A stretch of DNA of 64,000 nt. It comes from Heterodontus francisci. Its lineage: Eukaryota. Shown here one piece after another: positions 9,553 through 61,399 of the stretch. The notes under the pieces were generated by a model, which made no database searches, was not told the origin of the DNA, and saw only the letters and a list, made by a program, of their open reading frames with translations. The position numbers were made by a program, and so were the translations under genes. Location: the NCBI RefSeq assembly GCF_036365525.1, contig NC_090399.1, positions 66,520,862-66,584,861 of the forward strand. Direction: 5' to 3'. Positions within the stretch are counted from its first letter, which is position 1. The number at the start of each line of letters is the position of its first letter.

Positions 9553-10015
9553 GTGAGTGAATGGGGAGTGGGGGTACTGAGAGTCGGCAAGTGAGGGCGG
9601 GGGGCAGGACTGAGAGTGGATGAGTGGGCGGGGAGTGGGGGTACTGAGAGTCGGCAAGTGAGGGAGGGGGGCAGGACTGAGAGTGGGTGAGTGGGGGCAC
9701 TGGGAGTCTGCAAGTGAGGGTGGGGGGCAGGATTGAGAGTGGATGAGTGGGTGGGGAGTGGGGGTACTGAGAGTCGGCAAGTGAGGGCGGGGGCAGGACT
9801 GAGAGTGTTGAGTGAGGTACTGAGAGTAGGTGAGTGCGGGCGAGAGGCAGGACTGAGAGTGGGTGAGTGGGCGGGGGGACTGAGAGTAGGTGAGTGAGTG
9901 GGGAGTGAGGTACTGAGAGTCAGCGAGTCAGGGCGGGAGTGGGGGACTGAGAGTGGGAGGAGCTGAGAATCAGCGAGTGAGTATGGGGGTACTGAGAGTC
10001 GGTGAGTCGGGTGGG
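9553..10015. repeat. G-rich degenerate minisatellite (~30/60-bp period) starting at the alpha2 donor
   Basis: Repeating gtgagtg..ggggagtgggggtactgagagtcggcaagtgaggg..gcaggactgagagt units. Confidence 0.85.
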
Positions 10016-10082
10016 GGGGATGTGGAGCTGGGATTGGGAGCACAGTGAATGAGGGGAGGAGTTTGGGAGCAGGAATTGAGTG

Positions 10083-13000
10083 ACAGAGGTCTGATCCCCA
10101 GTTTAAAGAGGTATGTAAAATTCCCCGGGGTCAGGAGTCTGATCCCCAGTTTAAAGAGATATGTACCATTCCCTGGGGTCTGGGGTCTATTCCCCAGTTT
10201 AAAGGGATATGTACCATTGTCTGGGGTAAGGGGTCTAATCCTCAGTTTGAAGGGATATGTACCATTCCCTGGGGTCAGGGGTCTATTCCCCAGTTTAAAG
10301 GGATATGTACCATTCCCTGGGGTAAGGGGTCTAATCCCCAGTTTAAAGGGATATGTACCATTCCCTGGGGTAAGGGGTCTAATCCCCAGTTTAAAGGGAT
10401 ATGTACCATTTCCCGAGGTCAGGGATCTAATCCCCAGTTTAAAGGGGTATGTACCGTTTCTTGGGGTCAGGGGACTGATCCCCAGTTTAAAAGGATATGT
10501 ACCGTTCCTTGGGGTCAGGGGACTGATCCCCAGTTTAAAGGGATATATACCGTTCCGTGGGGTCAGGGGTCTGATCCCAAGTTTAAAGGGGTATGTACCA
10601 TTCCTGCGGTCAGGGCTCTGATCCCCAGTTTAAAGGGGTATGTACCATTCCTGGGGTCAGGGGTCTAATCCCCAGTTTAAAGGGATATGTACCGTTCCTT
10701 GGGGTCACGGGACTGATTCCCAGTTTTAAGGGATATGTACCATTCCTTGGGGTCAGGGGTCTGATCCCCAGTTTAAAGGGGTATGTACCATTCCTGAGGT
10801 CAGGGGTCTGATCCCCAGTTCAAGGAGTATGTACCGTTCCTTGGGGTCAGGGGACTGATCCCTGGTTTAAAGGGATATGTACCGTACATTGGGGACAGGG
10901 GACTCATCCCCAGTTTAAAGGGATATGTACCGTTCCTTGGGGTCAGGGGTCTGATCCCAAGTTTAAAGGGGTATATACCGTTCCTGGGGTCAGGGCTCTG
11001 ATCTCCAGTTTAAAGGGGTATGTACCATTCCTGGGGTCAGGGGTCTGATCCCCAATTTAAAGGGATATGTACCATTCCTTGGTGACAGGGGTCCAATCCC
11101 CAGTTTAAAGGGGTATGTACCATTTCCCGAGGTCAGGGGTCTAATCCTCAGTTTAAAGGGATATGTACCATTCCCTGGGGTCAGGGGTCTGATCCCCAGT
11201 TTAAAGGGGTATGTACCATTCCTGGGGTCAGGGGTCTGATCCCCAGTTTAAAGGGGTATGGACCATTCCTGAGGTCAGGGGTCTGATCCCCAGTTTAAAG
11301 GGATATGTACCGATCCTTGGGGTCAGAGGTCGAATCCCCAGTTTAAAGGGATATGTACCATTTCCTGAGGTCAGGGGTCTAATCCGCAGTTTAAAGGGGT
11401 ATGTACCATTCCTGGGGTCAGGTGTCTGATCCCAAATTTAAAGGGGTATGTAACATAGCTGGGGTCAGGGCTCTGATCCCCAGTTTAAAGGGGTATGTAC
11501 CATTCCTGGGGTCAGGGGTCTAATCCCCAGTTTAAAGGGGTATGTACCATTCTTGGGGTCAGGTGTCTGATCCCCAGTTTAAAGGGATATGTAACGGTCC
11601 TCGGGGTCAGGGGACTGATCCCCAGTTTAAAGGGATATGTAACGGTCCTCGGGGTCAGGGGTCTGATCCCCAGTTTAAAGGGGTATGTACCATTCCTGAG
11701 GTCAGGGTAAAGATCCCCAGTTTAAAGGGATATGCACCGTTCCTTGGGGTCAGGGGACGGATCCCCAGTTTAAACGGATATGTACCGTTCCTTGGGGTCA
11801 GGGGTCTTATCCCAAATTTAAAGGGGTATGTACCATTTCTGGGGTCAGGGGTCTGATCCCCAGTTTAAAGGGGTATGTACCATTCCTGGGGTCAGGTCTA
11901 ATCCGCAGTTTAAAGGGGTATGTACCATTCCTGGGGTCAGGGGTCTGATCCCCAGTTTAAAGGGCTATGTACCATTCCTGCGGTCAGGTCTAATCCGCAG
12001 TTTAAAGGGGTCTGTACCATTCTAGAGGTCAGGGGTCTGATCCCCAGTAAAAGGGGTATGTACCATTCCTGGGGTCAGGGGTCTGATCCCCAGTTTAAAG
12101 GGTTATGTACCGTTCCTTGGGGTCAGGGGACTGATTGCCAGTTTAATGGGATCTGTACTGCTCCCGGGGTCAGGGGTCTGATCCCCAGTTTAAAGGGTAT
12201 GTTCCGTTCTTTGGGGTCTGGGTCCGATCGCCAGTTTAAAGGGATATGTACCATTCCCTGGGGTCCGGGGTCTAATCCCTCATTTAAAGGGGTATGTACC
12301 ATTTCCTGGGGTCAGGAATCTAATCCGCAGTTGAAAGGGATATGTACCATTCCCTGGGGTCAGGTGTCTAACCCCAGTTTAAAGGGATATGTACCATTCC
12401 CTGGGGTCAGGGCTCTGATCTCCAGTTTAAAGGGGTATGTGCCATTCCCTGGGGTCAGGGGTCTGATCCCCAGTTTAAAGGGTATGTACCATTCCTGGGG
12501 TCAGGGGTCCGATCTCCAATTTAAAGGGATATGTACCATTCCCTGGGGTCAGGGGTCGAATCCCCAGTTTAAAGGGAAATGTACCGTTCCTTGGGGTCAG
12601 GGGACTGATCCCCAGTTTAAAGGGATATGTACCATTCCCTGGGGTCAGGGGTCGAATCCCCAGTTTAAAGGGATATAGACCGTTCCTTGGGGTCAGGGGT
12701 CTGATCCCCAGTTTAAAGGGGTATGTACCATTCCTGCGGTCAGGGCTCTGATCCCCAGTTTAAAGGGATATGTACCATTCCTTGGGGTCAGGGGACCGAT
12801 CCCCAGTTCAAAGGGATATGTACCGTTCCTTGGGGTCAGGGGACCGATCCCCAGTTCAAAGGGATATGTACCGTTCCTTGGGGGCAGGGGACTGATCCCC
12901 AGTTTAAAAGGATATGTACCGTTCCTTGGGGTCAGGGGTCTGATCCCAAGTTTAAAGGGGTGTGTACTATTCCTGCGGTCAGGGCTCTGAACCCCAGTTT

Positions 13001-16000
13001 AAAGGGGTATGTACCATTCCTGGGGTCAGGGGTCTAATCCTCAGTTTAAAGGGGTATGTACCATTCCTTGGGGTCAGGGGACCGATCCCCAGTTCAAAGG
13101 GATATGTACCGTTCCTTGGGGTCAGGGGACTGATCCCCAGTTTAAAGGGATATGTACCATTCCTGGGGTCAGGGGGCTGATCCCCAGTTTAAAGGGGTAT
13201 GTACCATTCCTGAGGTCAGGGGTCTGATCCCCAGTTTAAAGGAGTATGTACCGTTCCTGGGGTCAGGGGTCTGATCCCCAATTTAAAGGGGTATGTACCA
13301 TTCCTGAGGTCAGGGGAAAGATCCCCAGTTTAAAGGGATATGCACCGTTCCTTGGGGTCAGGGGTCTTATCCCAAATTTAAATGGGGATGTACCATTTCT
13401 GGGGTCAGGGGTCTGATCCCCAGTTTAAAGGGGTATGTACCATTCCTGGGGTCAGGTCTAATCCGCAGTTTAAAGGGGTATGTACCATTCCTGGGGTCAG
13501 GGGTCTGATCCCCAGTTTAAAGGGGTATGTACCATTCCTGCGGTCAGGTCTAATCCGCAGTTTAAAGGGGTCTGTACCATTCTAGAGGTCAGGGGTCTGA
13601 TCCCCAGTTTAAAGGGGTACGTACCATTCCTGGGGTCAGGGGTCTGATCCCCAGTTTAAAGGGTTATGTACCGTTCCTTGGGGTCAGGGGACTGATCCCC
13701 AGTTTAATGGGATCTGTACTTCTCCCGGGGTCAGGGGTCTGATCCCCAGTTTAAAGGGTATGGTCCGTTCTTTGGGGTCTGGGTCCGATCGCCAGTTTAA
13801 AGGGATATGTACCATTCCCTGGGGTCAGGGGTCTAATCCCTCATTTAAAGGGGTATGTACCATTTCCTGGGGTCAGGAATCTAATCCGCAGTTGAAAGGG
13901 ATATGTACCATTCCCTGGGGTCAGGTGTCTAACCCCAGTTTAAAGGGATATGTACCATTCCCCGGGGTCAGGGCTCTGATCTCCAGTTTAAAGGGGTATG
14001 TACCATTCCCTGGGGTCAGGGGTCTGATCCCCAGTTTAAAGGGTATGTACCATTCCTGGGGTCAGGGGTCTGATCTCCAATTTAAAGGGATATGTACCAT
14101 TCCCTGGGGTCAGGGGTCGAATCCCCAGTTTAAAGGGATATGTACCGTTCCTTGGGGTCAGGGGACTGATCCCCAGTTTAAAGGGATATGTACCATTCCC
14201 TGGGGTCAGAGGTCGAATCCCCAGTTTAAAGGGATATAGACCGTTCCTTGGGGTCAGGGGTCTGATCCCCAGTTTAAAGGGGTATGTACCATTCCTGCGG
14301 TCAGGGCTCTGATCCCCAGTTTAAAGGGGTATGTACCATTCCTGGGGTCAGTGGTCTAATCCTCAGTTTAAAGGGGTATGTACCATTCCTTGGGGTCAGG
14401 GGACCGATCCCCAGTTCAAAGCGATATGTACCGTTCCTTGGGGTCAGGGGACTGATCCCCAGTTTAAAGGGATATGTACCATTCCTGGGGTCAGGGGTCT
14501 GATCCCCAGTTTAAAGGGGTATGTACCATTCCTAAGGTCAGGGATCTGATCCCCAGTTTAAAGGAGTATGTACCGTTCCTTGGGGTCAGGGGACTCATCC
14601 CCAGTTTAAAGGGATATGTACCGTTCCTTGGGGTCAGGGGTCTGATCCCAAGTTTAAAGGGTATGTACCATTCCTGGGGTCAGGGGTCTGATCCCCAGTT
14701 TAAAGGGTATGTACCATTCCTGGGGTCAGGGGTCTGATCCCCAATTTAAAGGGATATGTACCGTTCCTGGGGTAAGGGGTCTAATCCCCAGTTTAAAGGG
14801 ATATGTACCATTTCCCGAGGTCAGGGGTCTAATCCTCAGTTTAAAGGGATATGTACCATTCCTGGGGTCAGGGGTCTGATCCCCAGTTTAAAGGGGTATG
14901 TACCATTCCCTGGGGTCAGGGGTCTGATCCCCAGTTTAAAGGGATATGTACCGATCCTTGGGGTCAGGGGTCTAATCCCCAGTTTAAAGGGATATGTACC
15001 ATTTCCTGAGGTCAGAGGTCTAATCCCAAGTTTAAAGGGATATGTACCATTTCCCGAGGTCAGGGGTCTAATCCGCAGTTTAAAGGGGTATGTACCATTC
15101 CTGGGGTCAGTTGTCTGATCCCAAATTTAAAGGAGTATGTACCATTCCTGTGGTCAGGGGTCTAATCCCCAGTTTAAAGGGGTATGTACCATTCTTGGGG
15201 TCAGGGGTCTGATCCCCAGTTTAAAGGGGTATGTACCATTCCTGAGGTCAGGTGTCTGATCCCCAGTTTAAAGGGATATGTAACGTTCCTTGGGGTCAGG
15301 GGACTGATCCCCAGTTTAAAGGGATATGTACCGTTCCTTGGAGTCAGGGGTCTTATCCCAAATTTAAAGGGGTATGTACCATTCCTGGTGTCAGATGTCT
15401 GATCCCCAGTTTAAAGGGATATGTAACGTTCCTTGGGGTCAGGGGACTGATCCCCAGTTTAAAGGGATATGTACCGTTCCTTGGAGTCAGGGGTCTTATC
15501 CCAAATTTAAAGGGGTATGTACCATTTCTGGGGTCAGGGGTCTGATCCCCAGTTTAAAGGGGTATGTACCATTCCTGGGGTCAGGTCTAATCCGCAGTTT
15601 AAAGGGGTATGTACCATTCCTGCGGTCAGGTCTAATCCGCAGTTTAAAGGGATATGTACCATTCCAGACGTCAGGGCTCTGATCCCCAGTTTAAAGGGGT
15701 ATGTTCCATTCCTGGGGTCAGGGGTCTAATCCACAGTTTAAAGGGATATATACCGTTCCTTGGGGTCAGGGGTCTGATCCCAAGTTTAAAGGGTATGTAC
15801 CATTCCTGGGGTCAGGGGTCTGATCCCCAGTTTAAAGGGTATGTACCATTCCTGGGGTCAGGGGTCTGATCCCCAATTTAAAGGGGTATGTACCATTCCT
15901 GAGGTCAGGGGAAAGATCCCCAGTTTAAAGGGATATGCACCGTTCCTTGGGGTCAGGGGACGGATCCCCAGTTTAAAGGGATATGTACCGTTCCTTGGGG

Positions 16001-19000
16001 TCAGGGGTCTTATCCCAAATTTCAAGGGGTATGTACCATTCCTGGGGTCAGGGGTCTGATCCCCAGTTTAAAGGGGTATGTACCATTCCTGGGGTCAGGT
16101 CTAATCCGCAGTTTAAAGGGGTATGTACCATTCCTGGGGTCAGGGGTCTGATCCCCAGTTTAAAGGGGTATGTACCATTCCTGCGGTCAGGTCTAATCCG
16201 CAGTTTAAAGGGGTCTGTACCATTCTAGAGGTCAGGGGTCTGATCCCCAGTTTAAAGGGGTATGTACCATTCCTGGGGTCAGGGGTCTGATCCCCAGTTT
16301 AAAGGGTTATGTACCGTTCCTTGGGGTCAGGGGACTGATCCCCAGTTTAATGGGATCTGTACTGCTCCCGGGGTCAGGGGTCTGATCCCCAGTTTAAAGG
16401 GTATGTTCCGTTCTTTGGGGTCTGGGTCCGATCGCCAGTTTAAAGGGATATGTACCATTCCCTGGGGTCAGGGGTCTAATCCCTCATTTAAAGGGGTATG
16501 TACCATTTCCTGGGTCAGGAATCTAATCCGCAGTTGAAAGGGATATGTACCATTCCCTGGGGTCAGGTGTCTAACCCCAGTTTAAAGGGATATGTACCAT
16601 TCCCTGGGGTCAGGGCTCTGATCTCCAGTTTAAAGGGTTATGTACCATTCCCTGGGGTCAGGGGTCTGATCCCCAGTTTAAAGGGTATGTACCATTCCTG
16701 GGGTCAGGGGTCTGATCTCCAATTTAAAGGGATATGTACCATTCCCTGGGGTCAGGGGTCGAATCCCCAGTTTAAAGGGATATGTACCGTTCCTTGGGGT
16801 CAGGGGACTGATCCCCAGTTTAAAGGGATATGTACCATTCCCTGGGGTCAGGGGTCGAATCCCCAGTTTAAAGGGATATAGACCGTTCCTTGGGGTCAGG
16901 GGTCTGATCCCCAGTTTAAAGGGGTATGTACCATTCCTGCGGTCAGGGCTCTGATCCCCAGTTTAAGGGGTATGTACCATTCCTGGGGTCAGGGGTCTAA
17001 TCCTCAGTTTAAAGGGGTATGTACCATTCCTTGGGGTCAGGGGACCGATCCCCAATTTAAAGGGATATGTACCATTCCTGGTGTAAGGGGTCTAATCCCC
17101 AGTTTAAAGGGATATGTACCATTTCCCGAGGTCAGGGGTCTAATCCTCAGTTTAAAGGGATATGTACCATTCCTGGGGTCAGGGCTCTGATCCCCAGTTT
17201 AAAGGGGTATGTACCATTCCTTGGGGTCAGGGGACCGATCCCCAGTTCAAAGGGATATGTACCGTTCCTTGGGGTCAGGGGACCGATCCCCAGTTCAAAG
17301 GGATATGTACCGTTCCTTGGGGTCAGGGGACTGATCCCCAGTTTAAAGGGATATGTACCATTCCTTGGGGTCAGGGGTCTGATCCCAAGTTTAAAGGGGT
17401 GTGTACTATTCCTGCGGTCAGGGCTCTGATCCCCAGTTTAAAGGGGTATGTACCATTCCTGGGGTCAGGGGTCTAATCCTCAGTTTAAAGGGATATGTAC
17501 CGTTCCTTGGGGTCAGGGGACTGATCCCCAGTTTAAAGGGATATGTACCATTCCTGGGGTCAGGGGGCTGATCCCCAGTTTAAAGGGGTATGTACCATTC
17601 CTGAGGTCAGGGGTCTGATCCCCAGTTTAAAGGAGTCTGTTCCGTTCCTGGGGTCAGGGGTCTGATCCCCAATTTAAAGGGGTATGTACCATTCCTGAGG
17701 TCAGGGGAAAGATCCCCAGTTTAAAGGGATATGCACCGTTCCTTGGGGTCAGGGGTCTTATCCCAAATTTAAATGGGGATGTACCATTTCTGGGGTCAGG
17801 GGTCTGATCCCCAGTTTAAAGGGGTATGTACCATTCCTGGGGTCAGGTCTAATCCGCAGTTTAAAGGGGTATGTACCATTCCTGGGGTCAGGGGTCTGAT
17901 CCCCAGTTTAAAGGGGTATGTACCATTCCTGCGGTCAGGTCTAATCCGCAGTTTAAAGGGGTCTGTACCATTCTAGAGGTCAGGGGTCTGATCCCCAGTT
18001 TAAAGGGGTATGTACCATTCCTGGGGTCAGGGGTCTGATCCCCAGTTTAAAGGGTTATGTACCGTTCCTTGGGGTCAGGGGACTGATCCCCAGTTTAATG
18101 GGATCTGTACTGCTCCCGGGGTCAGGGGTCTGATCCCAGTTTAAAGGGTATGGTCCGTTCTTTGGGGTCTGGGTCCGATCGCCAGTTTAAAGGGATATGT
18201 ACCATTCCCTGGGGTCAGGGGTCTAATCCCTCATTTAAAGGGGTATGTACCATTTCCTGGGGTCAGGAATCTAATCCGCAGTTGAAAGGGATATGTACCA
18301 TTCCCTGGGGTCAGGTGTCTAACCCCAGTTTAAAGGGATATGTACCATTCCCCGGGGTCAGGGCTCTGATCTCCAGTTTAAAGGGGTATGTACCATTCCC
18401 TGGGGTCAGGGGTCTGATCCCCAGTTTAAAGGGTATGTACCATTCCTGGGGTCAGGGGTCTGATCTCCAATTTAAAGGGATATGTACCATTCCCTGGGGT
18501 CAGGGGTCGAATCCCCAGTTTAAAGGGATATGTACCGTTCCTTGGGGTCAGGGGACTGATCCCCAGTTTAAAGGGATATGTACCATTCCCTGGGGTCAGG
18601 GGTCGAATCCCCAGTTTAAAGGGATATAGACCGTTCCTTGGGGTCAGGGGTCTGATCCCCAGTTTAAAGGGGTATGTACCATTCCTGCGGTCAGGGCTCT
18701 GATCCCCAGTTTAAAGGGGTATGTACCATTCCTGGGGTCAGGGGTCGAATCCCCAGTTTAAAGGGATATAGACCGTTCCTTGGGGTCAGGGGACTGATCC
18801 CCAGTTTAAAGGGATATGTACCATTCCTGGGGTCAGGGGTCTGATCCCCAGTTGAAAGGGGTATGTACCATTCCTAAGGTCAGGGGTCTGATCCCCAGTT
18901 TAAAGGAGGATGTACCGTTCCTTGGGGTCAGGGGACTCATCCCCAGTTTAAAGGGATATGTACCGTTCCTTGGGGTCAGGGGTCTGATCCCAAGTTTAAA

Positions 19001-22000
19001 GGGTATGTACCATTCCTGGGGTCAGGGGTCTGATCCCCAGTTTAAAGGGTATGTACCATTCCTGGGGTCAGGGGTCTGATCCCCAATTTAAAGGGATATG
19101 TACCATTCCTGGGGTAAGGGGTCTAATCCCCAGTTTAAAGGGATATGTACCATTTCCCGAGGTCAGGGGTCTAATCCTCAGTTTAAAGGGATATGTACCA
19201 TTCCTGGGGTCAGGGGTCTGATCCCCAGTTTAAAGGGGTATGTACCATTCCCTGGGGTCAGGGGTCTGATCCCCAGTTTAAAGGGATATGTACCGATCCT
19301 TGGGGTCAGGGGTCTAATCCCCAGTTTAAAGGGATATGTACCATTTCCTGAGGTCAGAGGTCTAATCCCCAGTTTAAAGGGATATGTACCATTTCCCGAG
19401 GTCAGGGGTCTAATCCGCAGTTTAAAGGGGTATGTACCATTCCTGGCGTCAGTTGTCTGATCCCAAATTTAAAGGAGTATGTACCATTCCTGTGGTCAGG
19501 GGTCTAATCCCCAGTTTAAAGGGGTATGTACCATTCTTGGGGTCAGGGGTCTGATCCCCAGTTTAAAGGGGTATGTACCATTCCTGAGGTCAGGTGTCTG
19601 ATCCCCAGTTTAAAGGGATATGTAACGTTCCTTGGGGTCAGGGGACTGATCCCCAGTTTAAAGGGATATGTACCGTTCCTTGGAGTCAGGGGTCTTATCC
19701 CAAATTTAAAGGGGTATGTACCATTTCTGGGGTCAGGGGTCTGAACCCCAGTTTAAAGGGGTATGTACCATTCCTGGGGTCAGGTCTAATCCGCAGTTTA
19801 AAGGGGTATGTACCATTCCTGGGGTCAGGGGTCTGATCCCCAGTTTAAAGGGGTATGTCCCATTCCTGCGGTCAGGTCTAATCCGCAGTTTAAAGGGATA
19901 TGTACCATTCCAGACGTCAGGGCTCTGATCCCCAGTTTAAAGGGGTATGTTCCATTCCTGGGGTCAGGGGTCTAATCCACAGTTTAAAGGGATACATACC
20001 GTTCCTTGGGGTCTGGGGTCTGATCCCAAGTTTAAAGGGTATGTACCATTCCTGGGGTCAGGGGTCTGATCCCCAGTTTAAAGGGTATGTACCATTCCTG
20101 GGGTCAGGGGTCTGATCCCCAATTTAAAGGGGTATGTACCATTCCTGAGGTCAGGGGAAAGATCCCCAGTTTAAAGGGATATGCACCGTTCCTTGGGGTC
20201 AGGGGACGGATCCCCAGTTTAAAGGGATATGTACCGTTCCTTGGGGTCAGGGGTCTTATCCCAAATTTCAAGTGGTATGTACCATTCCTAGGGTCAGGGG
20301 TCTGATCCCCAGTTTAAAGGTGTATGTACCATTCCTGGGGTCAGGTCTAATCCGCAGTTTAAAGGGGTATGTACCATTCCTGGGGTCAGGGGTCTGATCC
20401 CCAGTTTAAAGGGGTATGTACCATTCCTGCGGTCAGGTCTAATCCGCAGTTTAAAGGGGTCTGTACCATTCTAGAGGTCAGGGGTCTGATCCCCAGTTTA
20501 AAGGGGTATGTACCATTCCTGGGGTCAGGGGTCTGATCCCCAGTTTAAAGGGTTATGTACCGTTCCTTGGGGTCAGGGGACTGATCCCCAGTTTAATGGG
20601 ATCTGTACTGCTCCCGGGGTCAGGGGTCTGATCCCCAGTTTAAAGGGTATGTTTCGTTCTTTGGGGTCTGGGTCCGATCGCCAGTTTAAAGGGATATGTA
20701 CCATTCCCTGGGGTCAGGGGTCTAATCCCTCATTTAAAGGGGTATGTACCATTCCTGGGGTCAGGGGTCTGATCTCCAATTTAAAGGGATATGTACCGTT
20801 CCCTGGGTTCAGGGGTCGAATCCCCAGTTTAAAGGGATATGTACCGTTCCTTGGGGTCAGGGGACTGATCCCCAGTTTAAAGGGATATGTACCATTCCCT
20901 GGGGTCAGGGGTCGAATCCCCAGTTTAAAGGGATATAGACCGTTCCTTGGGGTCAGGGGTCTGATCCCCAGTTTAAAGGGGTATGTACCATTCCTGCGGT
21001 CAGGGCTCTGATCCCCAGTTTAAAGGGGTATGTACCATTCCTGGGGTCAGGGGTCTAATCCTCAGTTTAAAGGGGTATGTACCATTCCTTGGGGTCAGGG
21101 GACCGATCCCCAATTTAAAGGGATATGTACCATTCCTGGGGTAAGGGGTCTAATCCCCAGTTTAAAGGGATATGTACCATTTCCCGAGGTCAGGGGTCTA
21201 ATCCTCAGTTTAAAGGGATATGTACCATTCCTGGGGTCAGGGGTCTGATCCCCAGTTTAAAGGGGTATGTACCATTCCCTGGGGTCAGGGGTCTGATCCC
21301 CAGTTTAAAGGGATATGTACCGATCCTTGGGGTCAGGGGTCTAATCCCCAGTTTAAAGGGATGTGTACCATTTCCTGAGGTCAGGGGTCTAATCCCCAGT
21401 TTAAAGGGATATGTACCATTTCCTGAGGTCAGGAGTCTGATCCCCAGTTTAAAGGGGTATGTACCTTTCCTGAGGTCAGGTGTCTGATCCCCAGTTTAAA
21501 GGGATATGTAACGTTCCTTGGGGTCAGGGGACTGATCCCCAGTTTAAAGGGATATGTACCGTTCCTTGGGGTCAGGGGTCTTATCCCAAATTTAAAGGGG
21601 TATGTACCATTTCTGGGGTCAGGGGTCTGATCCCCAGTTTAAAGTGGTACGTACCATTCCTGGGGTCAGGTCTACTCCGCAGTTTAAAGGGGTATGTACC
21701 ATTCCTGGGGTCAGGGGTCTGATCCCCAGTTTAAAGTGGTATGTTACATTCCTGCGGTCAGGACTAATCCGCAGTTTAAAGGGATATGTACCATTCCAGA
21801 GGTCAGGGGTCTAATCCCCAGTTTAAAGGGGTATGTACCATTCTTGGGGTCAGGGGTCTGATCCCCAGTTTAAAGGGGTATGTACCATTCCTGAGGTCAG
21901 GTGTCTGATCCCCAGTTTAAAGGGATATGTAACGTTCCTTGGGGTCAGGGGACTGATCCCCAGTTTAAAGGGATATGTACCGTTACTTGGGGTCAGGGGT

Positions 22001-43000: not shown

Positions 43001-46000
43001 TAAAGTGGTATGTACCATTCCTGCGGTCAGGTCTAATCCGCAGTTTAAAGGGATATGTACCATTCCAGAGGTCAGGGGTCTGATCCCCAGTTTAAAGGGG
43101 TATGTACCATTCCTGGGGTCAGGGGACTGATCCCAGTTTAACGGGATCTGTACTGCTCCCGGGGTCAGTGGTCTGATCCCCAGTTTAAAGGGTATGTTCC
43201 ATTCTTTGGGGTCTGGGTCCGCTCGCCAGTTTAAAGGGATATGTACCATTCCCTGGGGTCAGGGGTCTAATCCCTCATTTAAAGGGATATGTACCATTTC
43301 CTGGGGTCAGGAATCTAATCCGCAGTTGAAAGGGATATGTATCATTCCTGGGGTCAGGGCTCTGATCTCCAGTTTAAAGGGGTATGTACCATTCCCTGGG
43401 GTCAGGGGTCTGATCCCCAGTTTAAAGAGTATGTACCATTCCCTGGGGTCAGGTGCCAACCCCAGTTGAAAGGGATATGTACCATTCCCTGGGGTCAGGG
43501 GTCTATTCCTCAGTTTAAAGGAATATGTACCATTCCTGGGGTCAGGGGTCTAATCCCCAGTTTAAAGGGATATGTACCATTCCTGGGGTCAGGGGTCTAA
43601 TCCTCAGTTTAAAGGAATATGTACCATTCCCTGGGGACAGGTGTCTAATCCGCAGTTTAAAGGGGGATGTCCGATTTCCCGAGGTCAGGGGTCTAATCCT
43701 CAGTTTAAAGGAATATGTACCATTCCTGGGGTCAGGGGTCTAATCCTCAGTTTAAAGGGGTATGTACCATTCCTGGGGACAGGTGTCTAATCCGCAGTTT
43801 AAAGGGGTATGTACCATTCCTGAGGTCAGGTGTCTGATCCCCAGTTTAAAGGGATATGTACTGGTCATTGGGGTCAGGGGACTGATCCCCAGTTGAAAGG
43901 GATATGTACCGTTCCTTGGGGTCAGGGGTCTTACCCCAAGTTTAAAGGGGTATGTACCATTTCTGGGGTCAGGGGTCTGATCCCCAGTTTAAAGGGGTAT
44001 GTACCGGTCCTTGGGGCAGGTGCCAACCCCAGTTTAAAGGGATATGTACCATTCCCTGGGGTCAGGGCTCTGATCTCCAGTTTAAAGGGATATGTACCGT
44101 TCTTTGGGGTCAGGGGTCTGATCCGAAGTTTAAAGGGGTATGTACCATTCCTTGGGGTCAGGGGTCTGATCCCCAGTTTAAAGGGATATGTACCGTTCCT
44201 TGAGGTCAGGGGTCTGATCCCAAGTTTAAAGGGGTATGTACCATTCCTGAGGTCAGGGCTCTGATCTCCAGTTTAAAGGGGTATGTACCATTCCTGGGGT
44301 CAGGGGTCTGATCCCCAGTTTAAAGGGTATGTACCATTCCTGGCGTCAGGGCTCTGATCTCCAGTTTAAAGGGATATGTACCATTCCCTGGGGTCAGGGG
44401 TCTGATCCCCAGTTTAAAGGGATATGTACCGTTCCTTGGGGTCAGGGGTCTGATCCCAAGTTTAAAGGGGTATGTACCATTCCTGGGGTCAGGTCTCTGA
44501 TCTCCAGTTTAAAGGGATATGTACCGTTCCTTGGGGACAGGGGTCTAATCTCCAGTTTAAAGCGATATGTACCATTCCTGGGGTCAGGGGTCTAATCCTC
44601 AGTTTAAAGGAATATGTACCATTCCTGGGGTCAGGGGTCGATTCCTCAGTTTTAAGGAATATGTACCATTCCAGGGGTCAGGGGTCTAATCCCCAGTTTA
44701 AAGGGATATGTACCATTCCTGGGGTCAGGGGTCTAATCCTCAGTTTAAAGGAATTTGTACCATTCCCTGGGGACAGGTTTCTAATCCGCAGTTTAAAGGG
44801 GTATGTCCGATTTCCCGAGGTAAGGGGTCTAATCCTCAGTTTAAAGGAATATGTACCATTCCTGGGGTCAGGGGTCTAATCCTCAGTTTAAAGGAATATA
44901 TACCATTCCTGGGGTCAGGGGTCTAATCCTCAGTTTAAAGGGGTATGTACCATTCCCTGGGGACAGGTGTCTAATCCGCAGTTTAAAGGGGGATGTACCA
45001 TTCCTGAGGTCAGGTGTCTGATCCCCAGTTTAAAGGGATATGTACTGGTCATTGGGGTCAGGGGACTGATCCCCAGTTTAAAGGGATATGTACCGTTCCT
45101 TGGGGTCAGGGGTCTTACCCCAAGTTTAAAGGGGTATGTACCATTTCTGGGGTCAGGGGTCCGATACCCAGTTTAAAGGGGTATGTACCGGTCCTTGGGG
45201 TCAGGGGATTGATCCCCAGTTTAAAGGGATATGTACCGTTTCTTGGGGTCAGGGGTCTGATCCCCAGTTTAAAGGGGTATGTACCATTCCTTGGGGTCAG
45301 GTCTAATCTGCAGTTTAAAGGGGTATGTACCATTCCTGGGGTCAGGGGTCTGATCCCCAGTTTAAAGGGGTATGTACCATTCCTGGGGTCAGGTGTCTGA
45401 TCCCCAGTTTAAAGGGGTATGTACCATTCCTGGGGTCAGGGGTCTTATCCACAGTTTAAAGGGATATATACCGTTCCTTGGGGTCAGTGGTCTTATCCCA
45501 AGCTTAAAGGGGTATGTACCATTCCAGAGGTCAGGGGTCTGATCCCCAGTTTAAAGGGGTATGTACCATTCCTGGGGTCAGGGGACTGATCCCCAGTTTA
45601 AAGGGATCTGTACTGCTCCCGGGGTCAGGGGTCTGATCCCCAGTTTCAAGGGTATGTTCCGTTCTTTGGGGTCAGGATCCGATCGCCAGTTTAAAGTATA
45701 TGTCCCATTCCCTGGGGTCAGGGGTCTAATCCTTCATTTAAAGGGGTATGTACCATTCCCTGGGGTCAGGGGTCTAATCCCCAGTTTAAAGGGATACGTA
45801 CCATTCCCTGGGGTCAGGTGTCTCACCCCAGTTTAAAGGGATTATGTACCATTCCCTGGGGTCAGGTGTCTAACCCCAGTTTAAAGGGATAGATACCATT
45901 CCCTGGGGTCAGGTGTCTAACCCCAGTTTAAAGGGATATGTAACATTCCCTGGGGTCTGGTGTCCAACCCCAGTTTAAAGGGATATGTACCATTCCCTGG

Positions 46001-49000
46001 GGTCAGGTGTCTAACCCCAGTTTAAAGGGATATGTACCATTCCCTGGGGTCAGGTGTCTAACCCCAGTTTAAAGGGGTATGTACCGTTCCTTGGGGTCAG
46101 GGGTCTGATCCCCAGTTTCAAGGGTATGTTCCGTTCTTTGGGGTCAGGATCCGATCGCCAGTTTAAAGGGGTATGTACCATTCCCTGGGGTCAGGGGTCT
46201 AATCCCCAGTTGAAAGGGATATGTACCATTCCCTGGGGTCAGGGGTCTAATCCCCAGTTTAAAGGGGTATGTACCGTTTCTTGGGGTCAGGGGTCTGATC
46301 CCCAGTTTAAAGGGGTATGTACCAATCCTTGGGGTCAGGTCTAATCTGCAGTTTAAAGGGGGATGTACCATTCCTGGGGTCAGGGGTCTGATCCCCAGTT
46401 TAAAGGGGTATGTACCATTCCTGGGGTCAGGGGTCTGATCCCCAGTTTAAAGGTGTATGTACCATTCCTGGGGTCAGGAGTCTGATCCGCAGTTTAAAGG
46501 GGTATGTACCATTCCAGAGGTCAGGGGTCTGACCCCCAGTTTAAAGGGGTATGTACCATTCTTGGGGTCAGGGGACTGATCCCCAGTTTAAAGGGATCTG
46601 TACTGCTCCCGGGGTCAGGGGTCTGATCCCCTGTTTCAAGGGTATGTTCCGTTCTTTGGGGTCAGGATCCGATCGCCAGTTTAAGGTATATGTACCATTC
46701 CCTGGGGTCAGGGGTCTAATCCCTCATTTAAAGGGGTATGTACCATTCCCTGGGGTCAGGGGTCTAATCCCCAGTTTAAAGGGATAGGTACCATTCCCTG
46801 GGGTCAGGTGTCTAACCCCAGTTTAAAGGGATATGTACCATTCCCTGGGGTCAGGTGTCTAACCCCAGTTTAAAGGGATAGATACCATTCCCTGGGGTCA
46901 GGTGTCTAACCCCAGTTTCAAGGGATATGTACCATTCCCTGGGGTCTGGTGTCCAACCCCAGTTTAAAGGGATATGTACCATTCCCTGGAGTCAGGGGTC
47001 TAATCCCCAGTTGAAAGGGATATGTACCATTCCCTGGGATCAGGGGTCTAATCCCCAGTTGAAAGGGATATGTACCATTCCCTGGGGTCAGGTGTCTAAC
47101 CCCAGTTTAAAGGGGTATGTACCGTTCCTTGGGGTCAGGGGACTGATCCCCAGTTTAAGGGGATCTGTACTGCTCCCGGGGTCAGGGGTCTGATCCCCAG
47201 TTTCAAGGGTATGTTCCGTTCTTTGGGGTCAGGATCCGATCGCCAGTTTAAAGGGGTATGTACCATTCCCTGGGGTCAGGGGTCTAATCCCCAGTTTAAA
47301 GGGATATGTACCATTCCCTGGGGTCAGGTGTCCAACCCCAGTTTAAAGGGATATGTACCATTCCCTGGGGTCAGGTGTCCAACCCCAGTTTAAAGGGATA
47401 TGTACCGTTCCTTGGGGTCAGGGGTCTGATCCCCAGTATAAAGGGGTATGTACCATTTCTGGGGTCAGGGGTCTGATCCCCAGTTTAAAGGGGTATGTAC
47501 CATTCCTGGGGTCAGGTTGAATCCGCAGTTTAAAGGGGTATGTACCATTCCTGGGGTCAGGGGTCTGATCCCCAGTTTGAAGGGGTATGTACCATTCCTG
47601 GGGTCAGGGGTCTAATCCACAGTTTTAAGGGATATGTCCCGTTCCTTGGGGTCAGTGGTCTTAGCCCAAGCTTAAAGGGGTATGTACCATTCCAGAGTTC
47701 AGGGGTCTGATCCCCAGTTTGAAGGGGTATGTACCATTCCTGGGGTCAGGGAACTGATCCCCAGTTTAAAGGGATATGTACCGTTCCTTGGGGTCAGGTG
47801 TCTGATCCCCAGTTTAAAGGGGTATGTACCATTCCTGGGGTCAGGGGTCTGATCCCCAGTTTAAAGGGGTATGTACCATTCCACAGGTCAGGGGTCTGAT
47901 CCCCAGTTTGAAGGGGTATGTACCATTCCTGGGGTCAGAAAACTGATCCCCGGTTTAAAGGGGTATGTACCGTTCCTTGGGGTCAGGGGACTGATCCCCA
48001 GTTTAAAGGGATATGTACCGTTCCTTGGGGTCAGGGGTCTGATCCCAAGTTTAAAGGGGTATGTACCATTCCTGCGGTCAGGGCTCTGATCCCCAGTTTA
48101 AAGGGGTATGTACCATTACCTGGGGTCAGGGGTCTAATCCCCAGTTTAAAGGGGTATGTACCATTCCTTGGGGTCAGGGGACTAATACCCAGTTTAAAGG
48201 GATATGTACCGTTCCCTGGGGTCAGGGGTCTGATCCCCAGTTTAAAGGGATATGTACCGTTCCTTGGGGTCAGGGGACTGATCCCCAGTTTAAAGGGATA
48301 TGTACCGTTCCTTGGGGTCAGGGGACTGATCCCCAGTTTAAACTGATATGTACCGTTCCTTGGGGTCAGGGGACTGATCCCCAGTTTAAAGGGGTATGTA
48401 CCATTCCCTGGGGTCAGGTGACTGATCCCCAGATTAAAGGGATATGTACCGTTCCCTGAGGTCAGGGGTCTGATCCCCAGTTTAAAGTGGTATGTACCAT
48501 ACCTGGGGTCTGGGGTCTAATCCCCAGTTTAAAGGGATATGTACCATTACCTGGTGTCAGGGGACTGATACCCAGTTTAAAGGGATATGTACCGTTCCCT
48601 GAGGTCAGGGGTCTGATCCCCAGTTTAAAGGGGTATGTACCATACCTGGGGTCTAATCCCCAGTTTAAAGGGATATGTACCATTACCTGGTGTCAGGGGA
48701 CTGATCCCCAGTTTAAAGGGATATGTACCGTTCCTTGGGGTCAGGGGACTGATCCCCAGTTTAAAGGGGTATGTACCATTCCTGGGGTCAGGGGTCTAAT
48801 CCGCAGTTTAAAGGGGTATGTCCCATTCCTTGGGGTCAGGGCACTGATCCCCAGTTTAAAGGGGTATGTACCATTCCTGGGGTCAGGTGTCTAATCCGCA
48901 GTTTAAAGGGGTATGTCCCATTCCTGAGGTCAGGGGTCTGATCCCCCGTTTAAAGGAATATGTACCATTCCCTGGGGACAGGGGTCTAATCCCTCATTTA

Positions 49001-52000
49001 AAGGGGTATGTACCATTCCCTGGGGTCAGGGGTATAATCCCCAGTTGAAAGGGATTTGTACCATTCCCTGGGGTCAGGAGTCTAACCCCAGTTTAAAGGG
49101 ATATGTACCATTCCCTGGGGTCAGGTGTCTAACCCCAGTTTAAAGGGGTATGTACCATTCCCTGGGGTCAGGTGTCTAACCCCAGTTTAAAGGGATATGT
49201 ACCATTCCCCGGGGTGAGGTGTCTAACCCCAGTTTAAAGGGATATGTACCATTCCCTGGGGTCAGGTGTCCAACCCCAGTTTAAAGGGATATGTACCGTT
49301 CCTTGGGGTCAGGGGTCTGATCCCCAGTATAAAGGGGTATGTACCATTTCTGGGTTCAGGGGTCTGATCCCCAGTTTAAAGGGGTATGTACCATTCCTGG
49401 GGTCAGGTCGAATCCGCAGTTTATTGGGGTATGTACCATTCCTGGGGTCAGGGGTCTAATCCACAGTTTAAAGGGGTATGTACCAATCCAGAGTTCAGGG
49501 GTCTGATCCCCAGTTTGAAGGGGTATGTACCATTCCTGGGGTCAGGGAACTGATCCCCGGTTTAAAGGGGTATGTACCGTTCCTTGGGGTCAGGGGTCTA
49601 ATCCGCAGTTTAAAGGGGTATGTCCCATTCCTTGGGGTCAGGGCACTGATCCCCAGTTTAAAGGGGTATGTACCATTCCTGGGGTCAGGTGTCTAATCCG
49701 CAGTTTAAAGGGGTATGTCCCATTCCTGAGGTCAGGGGTCTGATCCCCCGTTTAAAGGAATATGTACCATTCCCTGGGGTCAGGGGTCTAATCCCTCATT
49801 TAAAGGGGCATTTACCATTCCCTGGGGTCAGGGGTATAATCCCCAGTTGAAAGGGATATGTACCATTCCCTGGGGTCAGGTGTCTAACCCCAGTTTAAAG
49901 GGATATGTACCATTCCCTGGGGTCAGGTGTCTAACCCCAGTTTAAAGGGGTATGTACCATTCCCTGGGGTCAGGTGTCTAACCCCAGTTTAAAGGGATAT
50001 GTACCATTCCCTGGGGTGAGGTGTCTAACCCCAGTTTAAAGGGATATGTACCATTCCCTGGGGTCAGGTGTCCAACCCCAGTTTAAAGGGATATGTACCG
50101 TTCCTTGGGGTCAGGGGTCTGATCCCCAGTATAAAGGGGTATGTACCATTTCTGGGGTCAGGGGTCTGATCCCCAGTTTAAAGGGGTATGTACCATTCCT
50201 GGGGTCAGGGGTCTAATCCACAGTTTAAAGGGATATGTCCTGTTCCTTGGGGTCAGTGGTCTTAGCCCAAGCTTAAAGGGGTATGTACCAATCCAGAGTT
50301 CAGGGGTCTGATCCCCAGTTTGAAGGGGTATGTACCATTCCTGGGGTCAGGGGTCTAATCCCCAGTTTAAAGGGGTATGTACCGTTCCTTGGGGTCAGGG
50401 GACTGATCCCCAGTTTAAAGGGATATGTACCGTTCCTTGGGGTCAGGGGTCTGATCCCAAGTTTAAAGTGGTATGTACCATTCCTGGGGTCAGGGGTCTG
50501 AGCCCCAGTTTCAAGGGGTATGTACCATTCCAGAGGTCAGGGGCTGATCCCCAATTTAAAGGGGTATGTACCATTCCAGAGGTCAGGGGTCTGATCCCCA
50601 GTTTAAAGGGGTATGTACCATTTTGGGGTCAGGGGTCTGATCCCCAGTTTAAAGGGATATGTACCGTTCCTTGGGGTCAGGTGTCTGATCCCCAGTTTAA
50701 AGGGATATGTACCGTTCCCTGAGGTCAGGGGTCTGATCCCAAGTTTAAAGGGGTATGTACCATTCCTGGGGTCAGGGGTCTGAGCCCCAGTTTCAAGGGG
50801 TATGTACCATTCCAGAGGTCAGGGGCTGATCCCCAATTTAAAGTGGTATGTACCATTCCAGAGGTCAGGGGTCTGATCCCCAGTTTAAAGGGGTATGTAC
50901 CATTTTGGGGTCAGGGGTCTGATCCCCAGTTTAAAGGGGTATGTACCATTCCAGAGGTCAGGGGTCTGATCCCCAGTTTGAAGGGGTATGTACCATTCCT
51001 GGGGTCAGGGAACTGATCCCCGGTTTAAAGGGGTATGTACCGTTCCTTGGGGTCAGGGGACTGATCCCCAGTTTAAAGGGATATGTACCGTTCCTTGGGG
51101 TCAGGTGTCTGATCCCCAGTTTAAAGGGATATGTACCGTTCCCTGAGGTCAGGGGTCTGATCCCCAGTTTAAAGGGGTATGTACCATACCTGGGGTCTGG
51201 GGTCTAATCCCCAGTTAAAAGGGATATTTCCCATTCCTGGGGTCAGGGGACTGATCCCCAGTTTAAATGGGTATGTACCATTCCTGAGGTCAGGGGTCTG
51301 ATCCCCCGTTTAAAGGAATATGTACCATTCCCTGGAGTCAGGGGTCTAATCCCTCATTTAAAGGGGTATGTACCATTCCCTGGGGTCAGGGGTCTAATCC
51401 CTCATTTAAAGGGATATGTACCATTCCCTGGGGTCAGGTGTCGAACCCCAGTTTAAAGGGATATGTACCATTACCTGGGGTCAGGTGTCTAACCCCAGTT
51501 TAAAGGGATATGTACCATTCCCTGGGGTCTGGAATCTAATCCGCAGTTTAAAGGGATAAGTACCGTTCCTTGGGGTCAGGGGTCTAAACCCCAGTTTAAA
51601 GGGATATGTACCATTTCTGGGGTCAGGGGTCTAATCCACAATTTAAAGGGATATGTACCGTTCCTTGGGGTCAGGGGTCTGATTCCCAGTTTAAAAGGGT
51701 ATGTTCCATTCCAGGGGTCAGGGGTCTGATCCCCAGTTTAAAGGGGTATGTACCATTCCTGAGGTCAGGGGTCTGATCCCCCGTTTAAAGGGGTATGTAC
51801 CGTTCCTTGGGGTCAGGGGTCTGATCCCCAGTTTAAAGGAATATGTTCCGTTCCCGGTGGTCAGTGGACTGATCCCAGTTTCAAGGGGTATGTACCGTTC
51901 CTTGGGGTCAGGGGACTGATCCCCAGTTTTAAGGGATATGTACCATTCCTGGGGTCAGGTGTCTGATCCCCAGTTTAAAGGGACATGTACCATTCCTGGG

Positions 52001-53780
52001 GTCAGGGTTCTGATCCCCAGTTTAAAGGGGTGTAATCCCCAGTTTAAAGGGGTATGTACCATACCTGGGGTCTGGGGTCTAATCCCCAGTTTAAAGGGAT
52101 ATGTACCATTACCTGGTGTCAGGGGACTGATACCCAGTTTAAAGGGATATGTACCGTTCCTGGGGTCAGGGGTCTAATCCGCAGTTTAAAGGGGTATTTC
52201 CCATTCCTGGGGTCAGGGGACTGATCTCCAGTTTAAATGGGTATGTACCATTCCTGAGGTCAGGGGTCTGATCCCCCGTTTAAAGGAATATGTACCATTC
52301 CCTGGAGTCAGGGGTCTAATCCCTCATTTAAAGGGGTATGTACCATTCCCTGGGGTCAGGGGTCTAATCCCTCATTTAAAGGGATATGTACCATTCCCTG
52401 GGGTCAGGTGTCTAACCCCAGTTTAAAGGGATATGTACCATTACCTGGGGTCAGGTGTCTAACCCCAGTTTAAAGGGATATGTACCATTCCCTGGGGTCT
52501 GGAATCTAATCCGCAGTTTAAAGGGATAAGTACCGTTCCTTGGGGTCAGGGGTCTAAACCCCAGTTTAAAGGGATATGTACCATTCCTGGGGTCAGGGGT
52601 CTAATCCACAGTTTAAAGGGATATGTACCGTTCCTTGGGGTCAGGGGTCTGATTCCCAGTTTAAAAGGGTATGTACCATTCCAGGGGTCAGGGGTCTGAT
52701 CCCCAGTTTAAAGGGGTCTGTACCATTCCTGGGCTCAGGGGACTGATCCCCAGTTTAAATGGGTATGTACCATTCCTGAGGTCAGGGGTCTGATCCCCCG
52801 TTTAAAGGAATATGTTCCGTTCCCGGTGGTCAGTGGACTGATCCCAGTTTCAAGGGGTATGTACCGTTCCTTGGGGTCAGGGGACTGATCCCCAGTTTTA
52901 AGGGATATGTACCATTCCTGGGGTCAGGTGTCTGATCCCCAGTTTAAAGGGACATGTACCATTCCTGGGGTCAGGGTTCTGATCCCCAGTTTAAAGGGGT
53001 GTAATCCCCAGTTTAAAGGGGTATGTACCATACCTGGGGTCAGGAGTGTGATCCCCAGTTTAAAGGGATATGTACCATTCCTGGGGTCAGGGGTCTGATC
53101 TCCAGTTTAAAGGGACATGTACCATTCCTGGGGTCAGGGTTCTGATCCCCAGTTTAAAGGGGTGTAATCCCCAGTTTAAAGGGATATGTACCATTCCTGG
53201 GGTCAGGAGTGTGATCCCCAGTTTAAAGGGATATGTACTATTCCTGGGCTCAGGGGTCTGATCCCCAGTTTAAAGGGATATGTACCATTCCTGGGGTCAG
53301 GTGTCTGATCCCCAGTTGAAAGGGACATGTACCATTCCTGGGGTCAGGGTTCTGATCCCCAGTTTAAAGGGGTGTAATCCCCAGTTTAAAGGGATATGTA
53401 CCATTCCTGGGGTCAGGAGTGTGATCCCCAGTTTAAAGGGATATGTACTATTCCTGGGCTCAGGGGTCTGATCCCCAGTTTAAAGGGATATGTACCATTC
53501 CTGGGGTCAGGTGTCTGATCCCCAGTTGAAAGGGACATGTACCATTCCTGGGGTCAGGGTTCTGATCCCCTGTTTAAAGGGGTGTAATCCCCAGTTTCAA
53601 GGGATATGTACCATTCCTGGGGTCAGGGTTCTGATCCCCTGTTTAAAGGGGTGTAATCCCCAGTTTAAAGGGATATGTATTATTCCTGGGCTCAGGGGTC
53701 TGATCTCCAGTTTAAAGGGATATGTACCATTCCTGGGGTCAGGGGTCTGATCCCCAGTTTAAAGGGATATGCACCATTTT
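10083..53780. repeat. 43.7-kb intronic satellite, 47/48-bp unit GGGGTCAGGGGTCTGATCCCCAGTTTAAAGGGRTATGTACCATTCC(C)T, on the order of 900 monomers, with higher-order repeats
   Basis: Continuous tandem array with no interrupting unique sequence seen. It ends about 40 bp before the alpha3 acceptor. Confidence 0.99.
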
Positions 53781-53821
53781 CTGTCTCTTGCTGACTTATT
53801 TCTGATCCGTTTTACTCTCAG

Positions 53822-54097
53822 TTGCTCCTCATCTGTTTCCATCCGTGGACAAAGTGTCAGCCACTAAACCGACCCAGTTCTCCTGCCTGGTCACGGGCTT
53901 TTATCCTCGCGATATCGAAGTCACCCTCCTGAGAAATGGCAGATCAATGGCAGACACGGAATCCCATGACATCCTGCCCAACCACGATGGCACCTACCAG
54001 CTCCGGAAATGGGCTCAGATCGACCCTAATGATGGAGCCACCTATTCCTGTCAGTATGAGCAGAGTGGAAAAGAAGGAGTGAAGATCCGAGACTGGG
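53822..54097 (+). CDS. MHC class I alpha3 (Ig C1-set) exon: VAPHLFPSVDKVSATKPTQFSCLVTGFYPRDIEVTLLRNGRSMADTESHDILPNHDGTYQLRKWAQIDPNDGATYSCQYEQSGKEGVKIRDW
   Basis: CTGAC branch-like motif, pyrimidine tract and CAG ending at 53821; donor GTAAGA at 54098. Contains CLVTGFYP, LPNHDGTYQ and YSC motifs. Confidence 0.97.
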
Positions 54098-54194
54098 GTA
54101 AGAGGAACAGTGACTGTAGGGGCAGTGTCTGTTTGTGAGATTTCAAGATGTTTATAATCACCTCTCCTCACTGTGTCTCCCAAAATCGATCGCC

Positions 54195-54480: not shown

Positions 54481-54554
54481 CTTTCCACTTTGCCATTTCC
54501 ATGGGCTTCGGTTTTACTCCCAAGTCTATTATTTGGCCCTTTTAATCAAGGTGT

Positions 54555-54950: not shown

Positions 54951-54973
54951 TAAAGTACCTTTTCAAAGTCCAT

Positions 54974-55308: not shown

Positions 55309-55329
55309 ACAGGACTGTCCTGGTAGACC

Positions 55330-57205: not shown

Positions 57206-57209
57206 ATGG

Positions 57210-61390: not shown

Positions 61391-61399
61391 ATCAGACTT

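What the first reader, a model, noticed from the sequence alone, without database searches (positions are those of the whole stretch)
10083..53780. A 43.7-kb pure satellite separates the ligand-binding exons from alpha3
Seen: about 99% of the 44,269-bp intron is one satellite with no transposon insertion I could detect, whereas the next 9-kb intron is almost all transposon debris. Established: this intron is usually hundreds of bp to a few kb in class I genes, and long recombination-prone introns are linked to domain shuffling in teleost class I. Inference: a young or actively homogenised array that may uncouple alpha1/alpha2 from alpha3/TM by recombination, delay transcription, or attract heterochromatin that lowers expression of a class Ib gene.
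Basis: partly seen in the sequence, partly recalled or inferred. Interest (0 to 1): 0.7.

Follow-up and report, generated by a model that had tools for sequence, protein, structure and literature searches.

The report
Satellite-swollen introns in shark MHC core
A 44-kb run of one 47-base repeat fills an intron of a shark immune (MHC class I) gene and is spliced out cleanly; neighbouring immune genes carry equally large or larger repeat-filled introns, so it is likely a by-product of runaway local repeat growth, like the 'sequence stuttering' described in birds but far larger, rather than a device for shuffling or silencing this gene.

Summary
Bases 10088-53780 are about 930 head-to-tail 47/48-bp units with no insertion, filling 98.7% of a 44,269-bp GT-AG intron. 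RNA contigs join 9552 to 53822 in 4 of 4 runs laid, including a related species, so this is one gene. The interpretation mostly fails. The array grew in place from a 2-3-copy seed found at the same intron position in 10 of 10 close paralogues. It is not exceptional locally: the same gene has 53.9-kb and 32.6-kb arrays in other introns, adjacent UAA-like genes have repeat-filled introns of 23-196 kb, and PSMB8 spans 361 kb. The gene does pair UAA-like alpha1/alpha2 with a distinct alpha3, but so do short-intron paralogues and proteins from five other shark species, so the mosaic predates the array. Silencing was not testable. Best reading: an avian-type 'sequence stuttering' domain at roughly 10-100 times the chicken scale in the shark class Ia region. 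The scan has already noted similar satellite introns in other shark class I genes.

The parts
1..7264 (+). 3' end of a 53.9-kb array of a 45-bp unit in intron 1; the leader exon lies 58.8 kb upstream of alpha1, outside the window
   Evidence: TRF; leader mapped with annotated protein P0004
7278..7538 (+). alpha1 exon of a nonclassical MHC class I gene
   Evidence: 100% match to annotated protein P0004
9280..9552 (+). alpha2 exon
   Evidence: RNA contigs leave the genome at 9552
9553..10087 (+). GA-rich degenerate repeat starting at the splice donor; related (66-74% identity) to the repeats in the same intron of UAA-like genes and of the 57-63 Mb paralogues
10088..53780 (+). 43.7-kb minisatellite, about 930 units of 47/48 bp on one strand, no insertion; core (12-43 kb) re-amplified by 1.5-11 kb block duplications, ends older
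53781..53821 (+). 41-bp unique polypyrimidine tract and acceptor; homologous to the sequence that follows the 2-3-copy seed in paralogues
53822..54097 (+). alpha3 exon of a lineage distinct from UAA and shared with several other sharks
   Evidence: RNA
54098..63140 (+). 9,043-bp intron, mostly dispersed-repeat debris, 2% tandem repeat
63141..63266 (+). connecting peptide / transmembrane exon
   Evidence: same contig depth as alpha3
63426..64000 (+). start of a 32.6-kb array of a 64-69-bp unit in the intron after the TM exon

Best explanation
The 43.7-kb array sits in a correctly spliced intron of a nonclassical shark MHC class I gene, shares its 47-bp unit with 2-3-copy seeds at the same place in paralogues, and most likely grew from such a seed as a near-neutral product of a regional repeat-expansion process that has also inflated other introns across the class Ia region. 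Shown: the splice, the seed in paralogues, kilobase block duplications inside the array, and intron-private arrays in four class I genes and PSMB8. Inferred: growth by unequal exchange or gene conversion between misaligned copies, mostly in the centre of the array; tolerance because the 41-bp acceptor tail and the exons stay intact; and absence of transposons because the array turns over faster than insertions accumulate.
For: Splice: in 4 of 4 runs laid, the loose end after 9552 reads as the start of alpha3. A 617-nt contig accounts for 215 + 276 + 126 nt of alpha2, alpha3 and TM. Local origin: all 213 genome-wide exact matches to a 27-bp unit motif lie in this intron, while 10 of 10 nearest paralogue loci carry 2-3 copies just before the acceptor and an orphan alpha3 carries one degenerate copy. 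Block duplication: the longest exact internal repeat is 1,719 bp at offset 2,596. The median best non-self identity of 44 windows of 500 bp is 99%, falling to 85-97% at the ends. Regional process: 69.7% of 854 kb is tandem repeat. UAA-like introns of 21, 23, 51, 84.5 and 196 kb are 97-100% repeat. PSMB8 spans 361 kb over six exons. Homologous introns carry the same unit at very different lengths: 137-mer 2.0 vs 18.7 kb, a different 47-mer 1.9 vs 51 kb. The 45-mer ranges from 2.2 to at least 10 kb among nine copies of the 57-63 Mb family, six of which were compared and are 98-100% identical.
Against: Neutrality is inferred, not shown. Array length in the animal was not checked with raw reads, and the neighbouring 82.7-kb array contains an assembly gap. 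Length variation between individuals was not measured. Not every intron in the domain is expanded: alpha1-alpha2 introns stay at 0.1-5 kb and the alpha3-TM intron here is transposon-type, which this explanation does not account for. GC3 is barely raised in the domain (0.64-0.71 vs 0.63-0.68 in mid-chromosome paralogues), unlike avian dot genes. Hairpin potential of the unit is inconsistent (z = -2.96, -1.24, -0.59 in 3 of 3 pieces folded).
Confidence: 0.75

Rival explanations
1. The array promotes recombination that uncouples alpha1/alpha2 from alpha3/TM.
For: The trees disagree: alpha1/alpha2 fall with UAA-like sequences and alpha3 falls apart from UAA. In the alpha3 tree a clade of this gene plus the Triakis UAA cDNA is rejected (p-AU 8.5e-49). 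In the smaller tree its alpha2 grouped with that cDNA at 99/96. A truncated alpha1-alpha2-only copy 300 kb away ends inside the GA-rich part of this intron.
Against: The same mosaic is present in paralogues whose intron is about 550 bp and in Squalus, Pristiophorus, Heptranchias and two Scyliorhinus species. With these added, the alpha2-Triakis grouping drops to 95/74, and a catshark protein of the same alpha3 lineage is sister at 89/93. Holding this gene's alpha2 with the 57-63 Mb paralogues is not rejected (p-AU 0.156). A related species has the same alpha2-alpha3 pair. UAA introns lack the 47-mer. The GA-rich 5' repeat, not the array, is the shared sequence.
Confidence: 0.08
2. The array lowers or delays expression of this class Ib gene through heterochromatin or long transcription time.
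For: Contig word depth for this gene is far below that of a class I look-alike in the same runs (80 vs about 4,000; 18 vs about 3,300). The three arrays add about 130 kb to the transcript.
Against: The tool states that contig depth cannot rank genes, and the deep sequence has no match in the assembly, so its introns are unknown. Classical-type UAA genes and PSMB8 carry larger arrays. Low expression is usual for class Ib genes (recalled). The array is CpG-poor (5-19 per kb).
Confidence: 0.1
3. The gene and splice are real, but the assembly inflates the array.
For: There is a near-perfect 2.6-kb tandem duplication at 28.8-34.0 kb. A gap occurs in a neighbouring array.
Against: There is no N in this intron. 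The longest exact repeat is 1.7 kb, shorter than typical long reads (read length recalled). Divergence is layered, with a young core and older ends. Dozens of unrelated arrays nearby show the same pattern.
Confidence: 0.07

Closest known systems
Intronic 'sequence stuttering' on avian dot chromosomes (Hron et al. 2026, PMC12954441; abstract and sections 7, 8 and 9 read in full, supplements not read)
   Same: Each intron holds its own locally derived unit of tens to hundreds of bases; arrays stop at exons; coding sequence is intact; few interspersed repeats; some units include splice-site or exon-like sequence.
   Different: Scale: chicken exon-stuttering spans are 112-23,555 bp (median 1,751), against 19-190 kb here. 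This is a distal domain of a 74.5-Mb chromosome, not a dot chromosome. GC3 is not extreme. Variation within the species was not measured here. The authors report it only in birds and gerbils.
Tandem-repeat enrichment of small chromosomes and chromosome ends in elasmobranchs (Yamaguchi 2023, PMC10620051; Squalomix preprint 10.1101/2025.06.08.657570; passages read)
   Same: Regions occupied largely by simple tandem repeats, increasing toward chromosome ends.
   Different: The passages seen describe window-level content and shorter genes at chromosome ends, not intron-private arrays that stretch genes to hundreds of kb.
Long intron 2 of teleost classical class I (PMC6523485, passages read)
   Same: A long intron between class I domain exons.
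   Different: The teleost intron lies between alpha1 and alpha2, is >10 kb and has documented allelic shuffling. Here it is alpha2-alpha3 of a nonclassical gene with no shuffling tied to it, and the alpha1-alpha2 introns are short.
Satellite-filled giant introns of Drosophila Y-loop genes (PMC6508621, search listing only) and mouse PAR minisatellite introns (10.1101/2022.03.26.485930, passages read)
   Same: Introns made of tandem repeats that are transcribed and spliced out; in the PAR they are attributed to unequal crossover.
   Different: Y-loop introns are megabase-sized with a dedicated expression programme. PAR introns are short and their exons extremely GC-rich.
Elasmobranch class Ia region (Verissimo et al. 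2023, PMC10751288; section 5 and passages read)
   Same: Class I genes next to PSMB8; extra 'MHC-Ia-like' genes near the class Ia gene are mentioned as unpublished.
   Different: The paper reports a span of 87 kb to 1.9 Mb between species; 'intron' does not occur in its main text, and intronic arrays are not discussed.

Membership tests
Sequence stuttering (Hron 2026) | Introns filled by locally derived, intron-specific units of tens to hundreds of bp that do not cross exons | tested here: met
   8 of 19 mapped intervals in four class I genes are at least 92% tandem repeat (seven introns of 21-196 kb at 97-100%, one of 59 kb at 92%); PSMB8 likewise; 213 of 213 motif hits lie in one intron
Sequence stuttering (Hron 2026) | Extensive intron length variation within the species | not testable with these tools
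   No raw long reads from several individuals. Proxy only: 2.2 to at least 10 kb among nine near-identical paralogues
Sequence stuttering (Hron 2026) | Occasional exon fragments in the unit (exon stuttering) | tested here: inconclusive
   Not for this 47-mer (17.5 bits vs 20.2 shuffled). The 137-mer of UAA intron 1 contains the acceptor plus about 10 exon bases and a 54-nt alpha1-like piece (41 bits vs 21 shuffled), just under the paper's 42.1 cut-off; 0 of 38 exon-intron pairs reached 42 bits
Sequence stuttering (Hron 2026) | Dot microchromosome with very GC-rich coding sequence | tested here: not met
   74.5-Mb contig; GC3 0.64-0.71 vs 0.63-0.68. It works like stuttering but is not the avian dot phenomenon itself
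MHC class I heavy chain | Leader, alpha1, alpha2, alpha3, TM and cytoplasmic exons in frame and spliced | tested here: met
   alpha2-alpha3-TM joins seen in RNA; the alpha1-alpha2 join is seen only in the annotation
Classical class Ia (UAA) | Eight conserved peptide-anchor residues (numbering recalled from HLA-A2) | tested here: not met
   4 of 8 kept (R84, T143, W147, Y159; F7, F59, E146, F171 replaced), against 8 of 8 in Triakis P0005
Named shark class Ib lineage (UBA-UGA) | Phylogenetic grouping with reference sequences of the named lineage | not tested
   Lineage-labelled references were not obtained and the lineage paper tried was not held; alpha3 groups with Squalus Q8HWH7 and other shark proteins
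Centromeric-type homogenised satellite | Shared across loci, with a fixed higher-order period | tested here: not met
   Large array at one locus only; no dominant period (best lag distance 0.135 vs mean 0.153)

The most novel reading that the evidence does not exclude
The shark class Ia core (UAA-like genes and PSMB8, probably TAP too) lies in a giant stuttering domain whose intron arrays differ by tens of kilobases between haplotypes. That length mismatch reshapes crossover across the region and helps hold co-adapted class I, proteasome and transporter alleles together. It would extend avian-type stuttering to cartilaginous fish at up to 100-fold scale and help explain the 87 kb to 1.9 Mb spread in class Ia region size.
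Probability: 0.15. Interest if true: 0.7.

Novelty: new variant of a known kind. Interest (0 to 1): 0.4.

Why it matters
This one intron is ordinary for its neighbourhood. The neighbourhood is the point. A form of intron instability reported so far in birds and gerbils appears to act on the core antigen-presentation genes of a shark at much larger scale. It shows that 40-190-kb pure minisatellite introns can be compatible with intact immune genes, and it may explain why shark MHC genes fragment in assemblies and why class Ia region size varies between species. Phased long reads could test it directly.

Tried and rejected
Misassembly of two genes: rejected by spliced contigs. A genome-wide satellite family that invaded the intron: rejected. 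My own first reading that the unit is private to this locus was wrong: the large array is private, but the unit is a lineage seed. A hidden insertion or inversion in the array: none over 17 bp, and no minus-strand unit. A fixed higher-order repeat: not found. Exon origin of the 47-mer: not above shuffle. A stable hairpin as cause: 1 of 3 pieces significant. Ranking expression by contig depth: not usable, and the deep class I sequence was not found in the assembly. No run was on record as RNA; the spliced joins are what identify them as RNA. X1 and X3 are one sample, which may be the source animal. Array length was not tested with DNA runs because both read-laying runs went to the splice question. 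The alpha1 tree is a quick tree, and seven near-duplicate rows were left out. Literature: ten searches gave no listing that reports intron-private giant arrays in a shark MHC. Subscription papers on shark class Ib lineages were not searchable, and no supplements were read.

Full report
Observation. The window holds exons of an MHC class I gene: alpha1 7278-7538, alpha2 9280-9552, alpha3 53822-54097 and TM 63141-63266, in one reading frame. The best PDB match of alpha2 is a class I protein. A public annotation has this protein at 100% identity in four isoforms and names it as a Heterodontus shark class I-related protein. The alpha2-alpha3 intron is 44,269 bp, of which 10088-53780 (98.7%) is about 930 units of 47/48 bp, all on one strand, with no uncovered stretch over 17 bp. 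Dispersed-repeat matches cover 0% of the array and 72% of the next intron.

One gene, spliced. RNA contigs laid on alpha2 leave the genome at 9552 and continue with the first 30 bases of alpha3 in 4 of 4 runs: two from one sample of this species, and two from two studies of a related organism. A 617-nt contig matches 215 nt of alpha2 and the alpha3 exon, and its remaining length equals the TM exon. Misjoining of two genes is excluded. Array length itself rests on the assembly.

Where the unit came from. A 27-bp unit motif has 213 exact matches in the 6-Gb genome, all inside this intron. The ten closest paralogue loci (seven at 57-63 Mb on the same chromosome, three on unplaced contigs; alpha3 73-74% identical) have 550-610-bp introns with the same layout: GA-rich repeats after the donor, then 2-3 copies of the 47-mer, then a homologous acceptor tail. 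An orphan alpha3 has one degenerate copy. The array therefore most likely expanded in place from an old seed. Units differ by 15% on average, about as much as they differ from the seeds, yet 500-bp windows in the core usually have a 98-100% copy elsewhere in the array at offsets of 1.5-11 kb, while the ends score 85-97%. This fits old unit diversity re-amplified recently by block duplication (inference: unequal exchange or conversion). There is no fixed higher-order period.

It is a regional process. Of 31 class I alpha2-alpha3 pairs on the chromosome, 27 are under 6 kb apart and one is 15.8 kb; the three over 20 kb are adjacent at 66.3-66.7 Mb (four unpaired alpha2 hits set aside). This gene also has a 53.9-kb 45-mer array in intron 1 and a 32.6-kb 64-mer array after TM. 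The flanking UAA-like genes have introns of 21, 23, 51, 84.5 (with a 200-N gap) and 196 kb that are 97-100% tandem repeat. In two of them it is the GA-rich 5' unit of this same intron that expanded instead. PSMB8, 274 aa, spans 361 kb with its own 29-, 31-, 37- and 51-bp arrays, so the effect is not specific to class I. The 854 kb around the window is 69.7% tandem repeat. In 20 spot samples of 10 kb, 10 of 10 between 10 and 56 Mb had under 6%, 5 of 5 between 64 and 70 Mb had 44-100%, those at 2, 6 and 73.5 Mb had 100%, and those at 71 and 72 Mb had 0.3% and 16%. Array lengths change quickly: the 45-mer runs from 2.2 to at least 10 kb among nine near-identical paralogues.

Domain shuffling. But the short-intron paralogues show it more strongly (alpha2 87%, alpha3 45% to a UAA cDNA), and the same combination occurs in Squalus, Pristiophorus, Heptranchias and two Scyliorhinus species. 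It is therefore much older than the array's young core. The related species keeps this alpha2 with this alpha3. UAA introns lack the 47-mer (best hit 14 bp). The teleost precedent is the alpha1-alpha2 intron (PMC6523485), which is short in all four genes here. One point remains for the rival: a truncated copy 300 kb away breaks off within the GA-rich part of this intron.

Expression. The gene keeps 4 of 8 anchor residues (numbering recalled), so class Ib is reasonable. Its contigs are much shallower than those of a class I look-alike, but contig depth cannot rank genes and that sequence is not in the assembly. Larger arrays in UAA-like genes and PSMB8 argue against array-driven silencing as a general rule. 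This remains untested.

Comparison and verdict. The closest description is 'sequence stuttering' (PMC12954441), reported for avian dot chromosomes and gerbils. Local, intron-private, exon-bounded arrays are met. Exon-derived units are borderline (the neighbouring 137-mer). Population variation is untested, and the dot-chromosome, GC-extreme setting is not met. It works like stuttering at 10-100 times the size without being that phenomenon strictly. Tandem-repeat-rich chromosome ends in sharks are already known, and earlier scan notes describe similar introns in other shark class I genes (unchecked). Verdict: real, spliced, and most likely a passenger of a regional expansion process; new variant of a known kind; interest 0.4.

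Noticed in passing
G000:C29:65829116-66190027 (L207-L226, L234-L246): PSMB8 spans 361 kb; introns of about 114, 32, 0.2, 141 and 72 kb, the long ones carrying different large arrays. One ~340-bp SINE-like insertion interrupts the intron 1 array, so not all arrays are insertion-free.
   Followed up: partly
G000:C29:66837832-67054955: UAA-like gene whose alpha1 and alpha3 resemble the published horn shark cDNA P0006; its leader-alpha1 intron is 196 kb, 99% tandem repeat.
   Followed up: partly
G000:C29:66702713-66721428 and 66346762-66348756: A 137-bp intron 1 unit containing the alpha1 acceptor, about 10 exon bases and a 54-nt alpha1-like piece (PEYWERQTQI-like): a candidate exon-stuttering unit that repeats a splice acceptor about 136 times.
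   Followed up: partly
window 7855-7883 joined to 9280: In two runs of the related organism the contig upstream of alpha2 is an intron 2 repeat fragment ending at a cryptic donor, not alpha1: a possible cryptic exon or internal start.
   Followed up: no
G000:C29:66628147-66672640: An alternative last (cytoplasmic) exon of this gene occurs in eight tandem copies spaced about 5-9 kb apart among 33-bp arrays; the annotation uses several as isoforms.
   Followed up: no
G000:C29:66832000-66837000 (minus strand): Truncated alpha1-alpha2 copy (91-94% protein identity, TGA in alpha2, no alpha3) inverted next to a UAA leader exon, with 0.6 kb of the 45-mer cut by a LINE-like piece.
   Followed up: partly
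G000:C29:57.4-62.8 Mb, C815, C1290, C1655: At least seven near-identical class I copies on the chromosome, spaced 0.3-1.4 Mb apart, sharing this gene's alpha3 lineage and intron seeds.
   Followed up: partly
window 1-7264, 10088-53780, 63426-64000: All three arrays end 13-41 bp before an acceptor, and the 45- and 64-bp units resemble the adjacent branch-point and polypyrimidine sequence, suggesting arrays are seeded next to splice sites.
   Followed up: no
window 57740-59810: About 2 kb of degenerate ~20-bp repeat between two 97%-identical 379-bp flanks inside the 9-kb intron.
   Followed up: no
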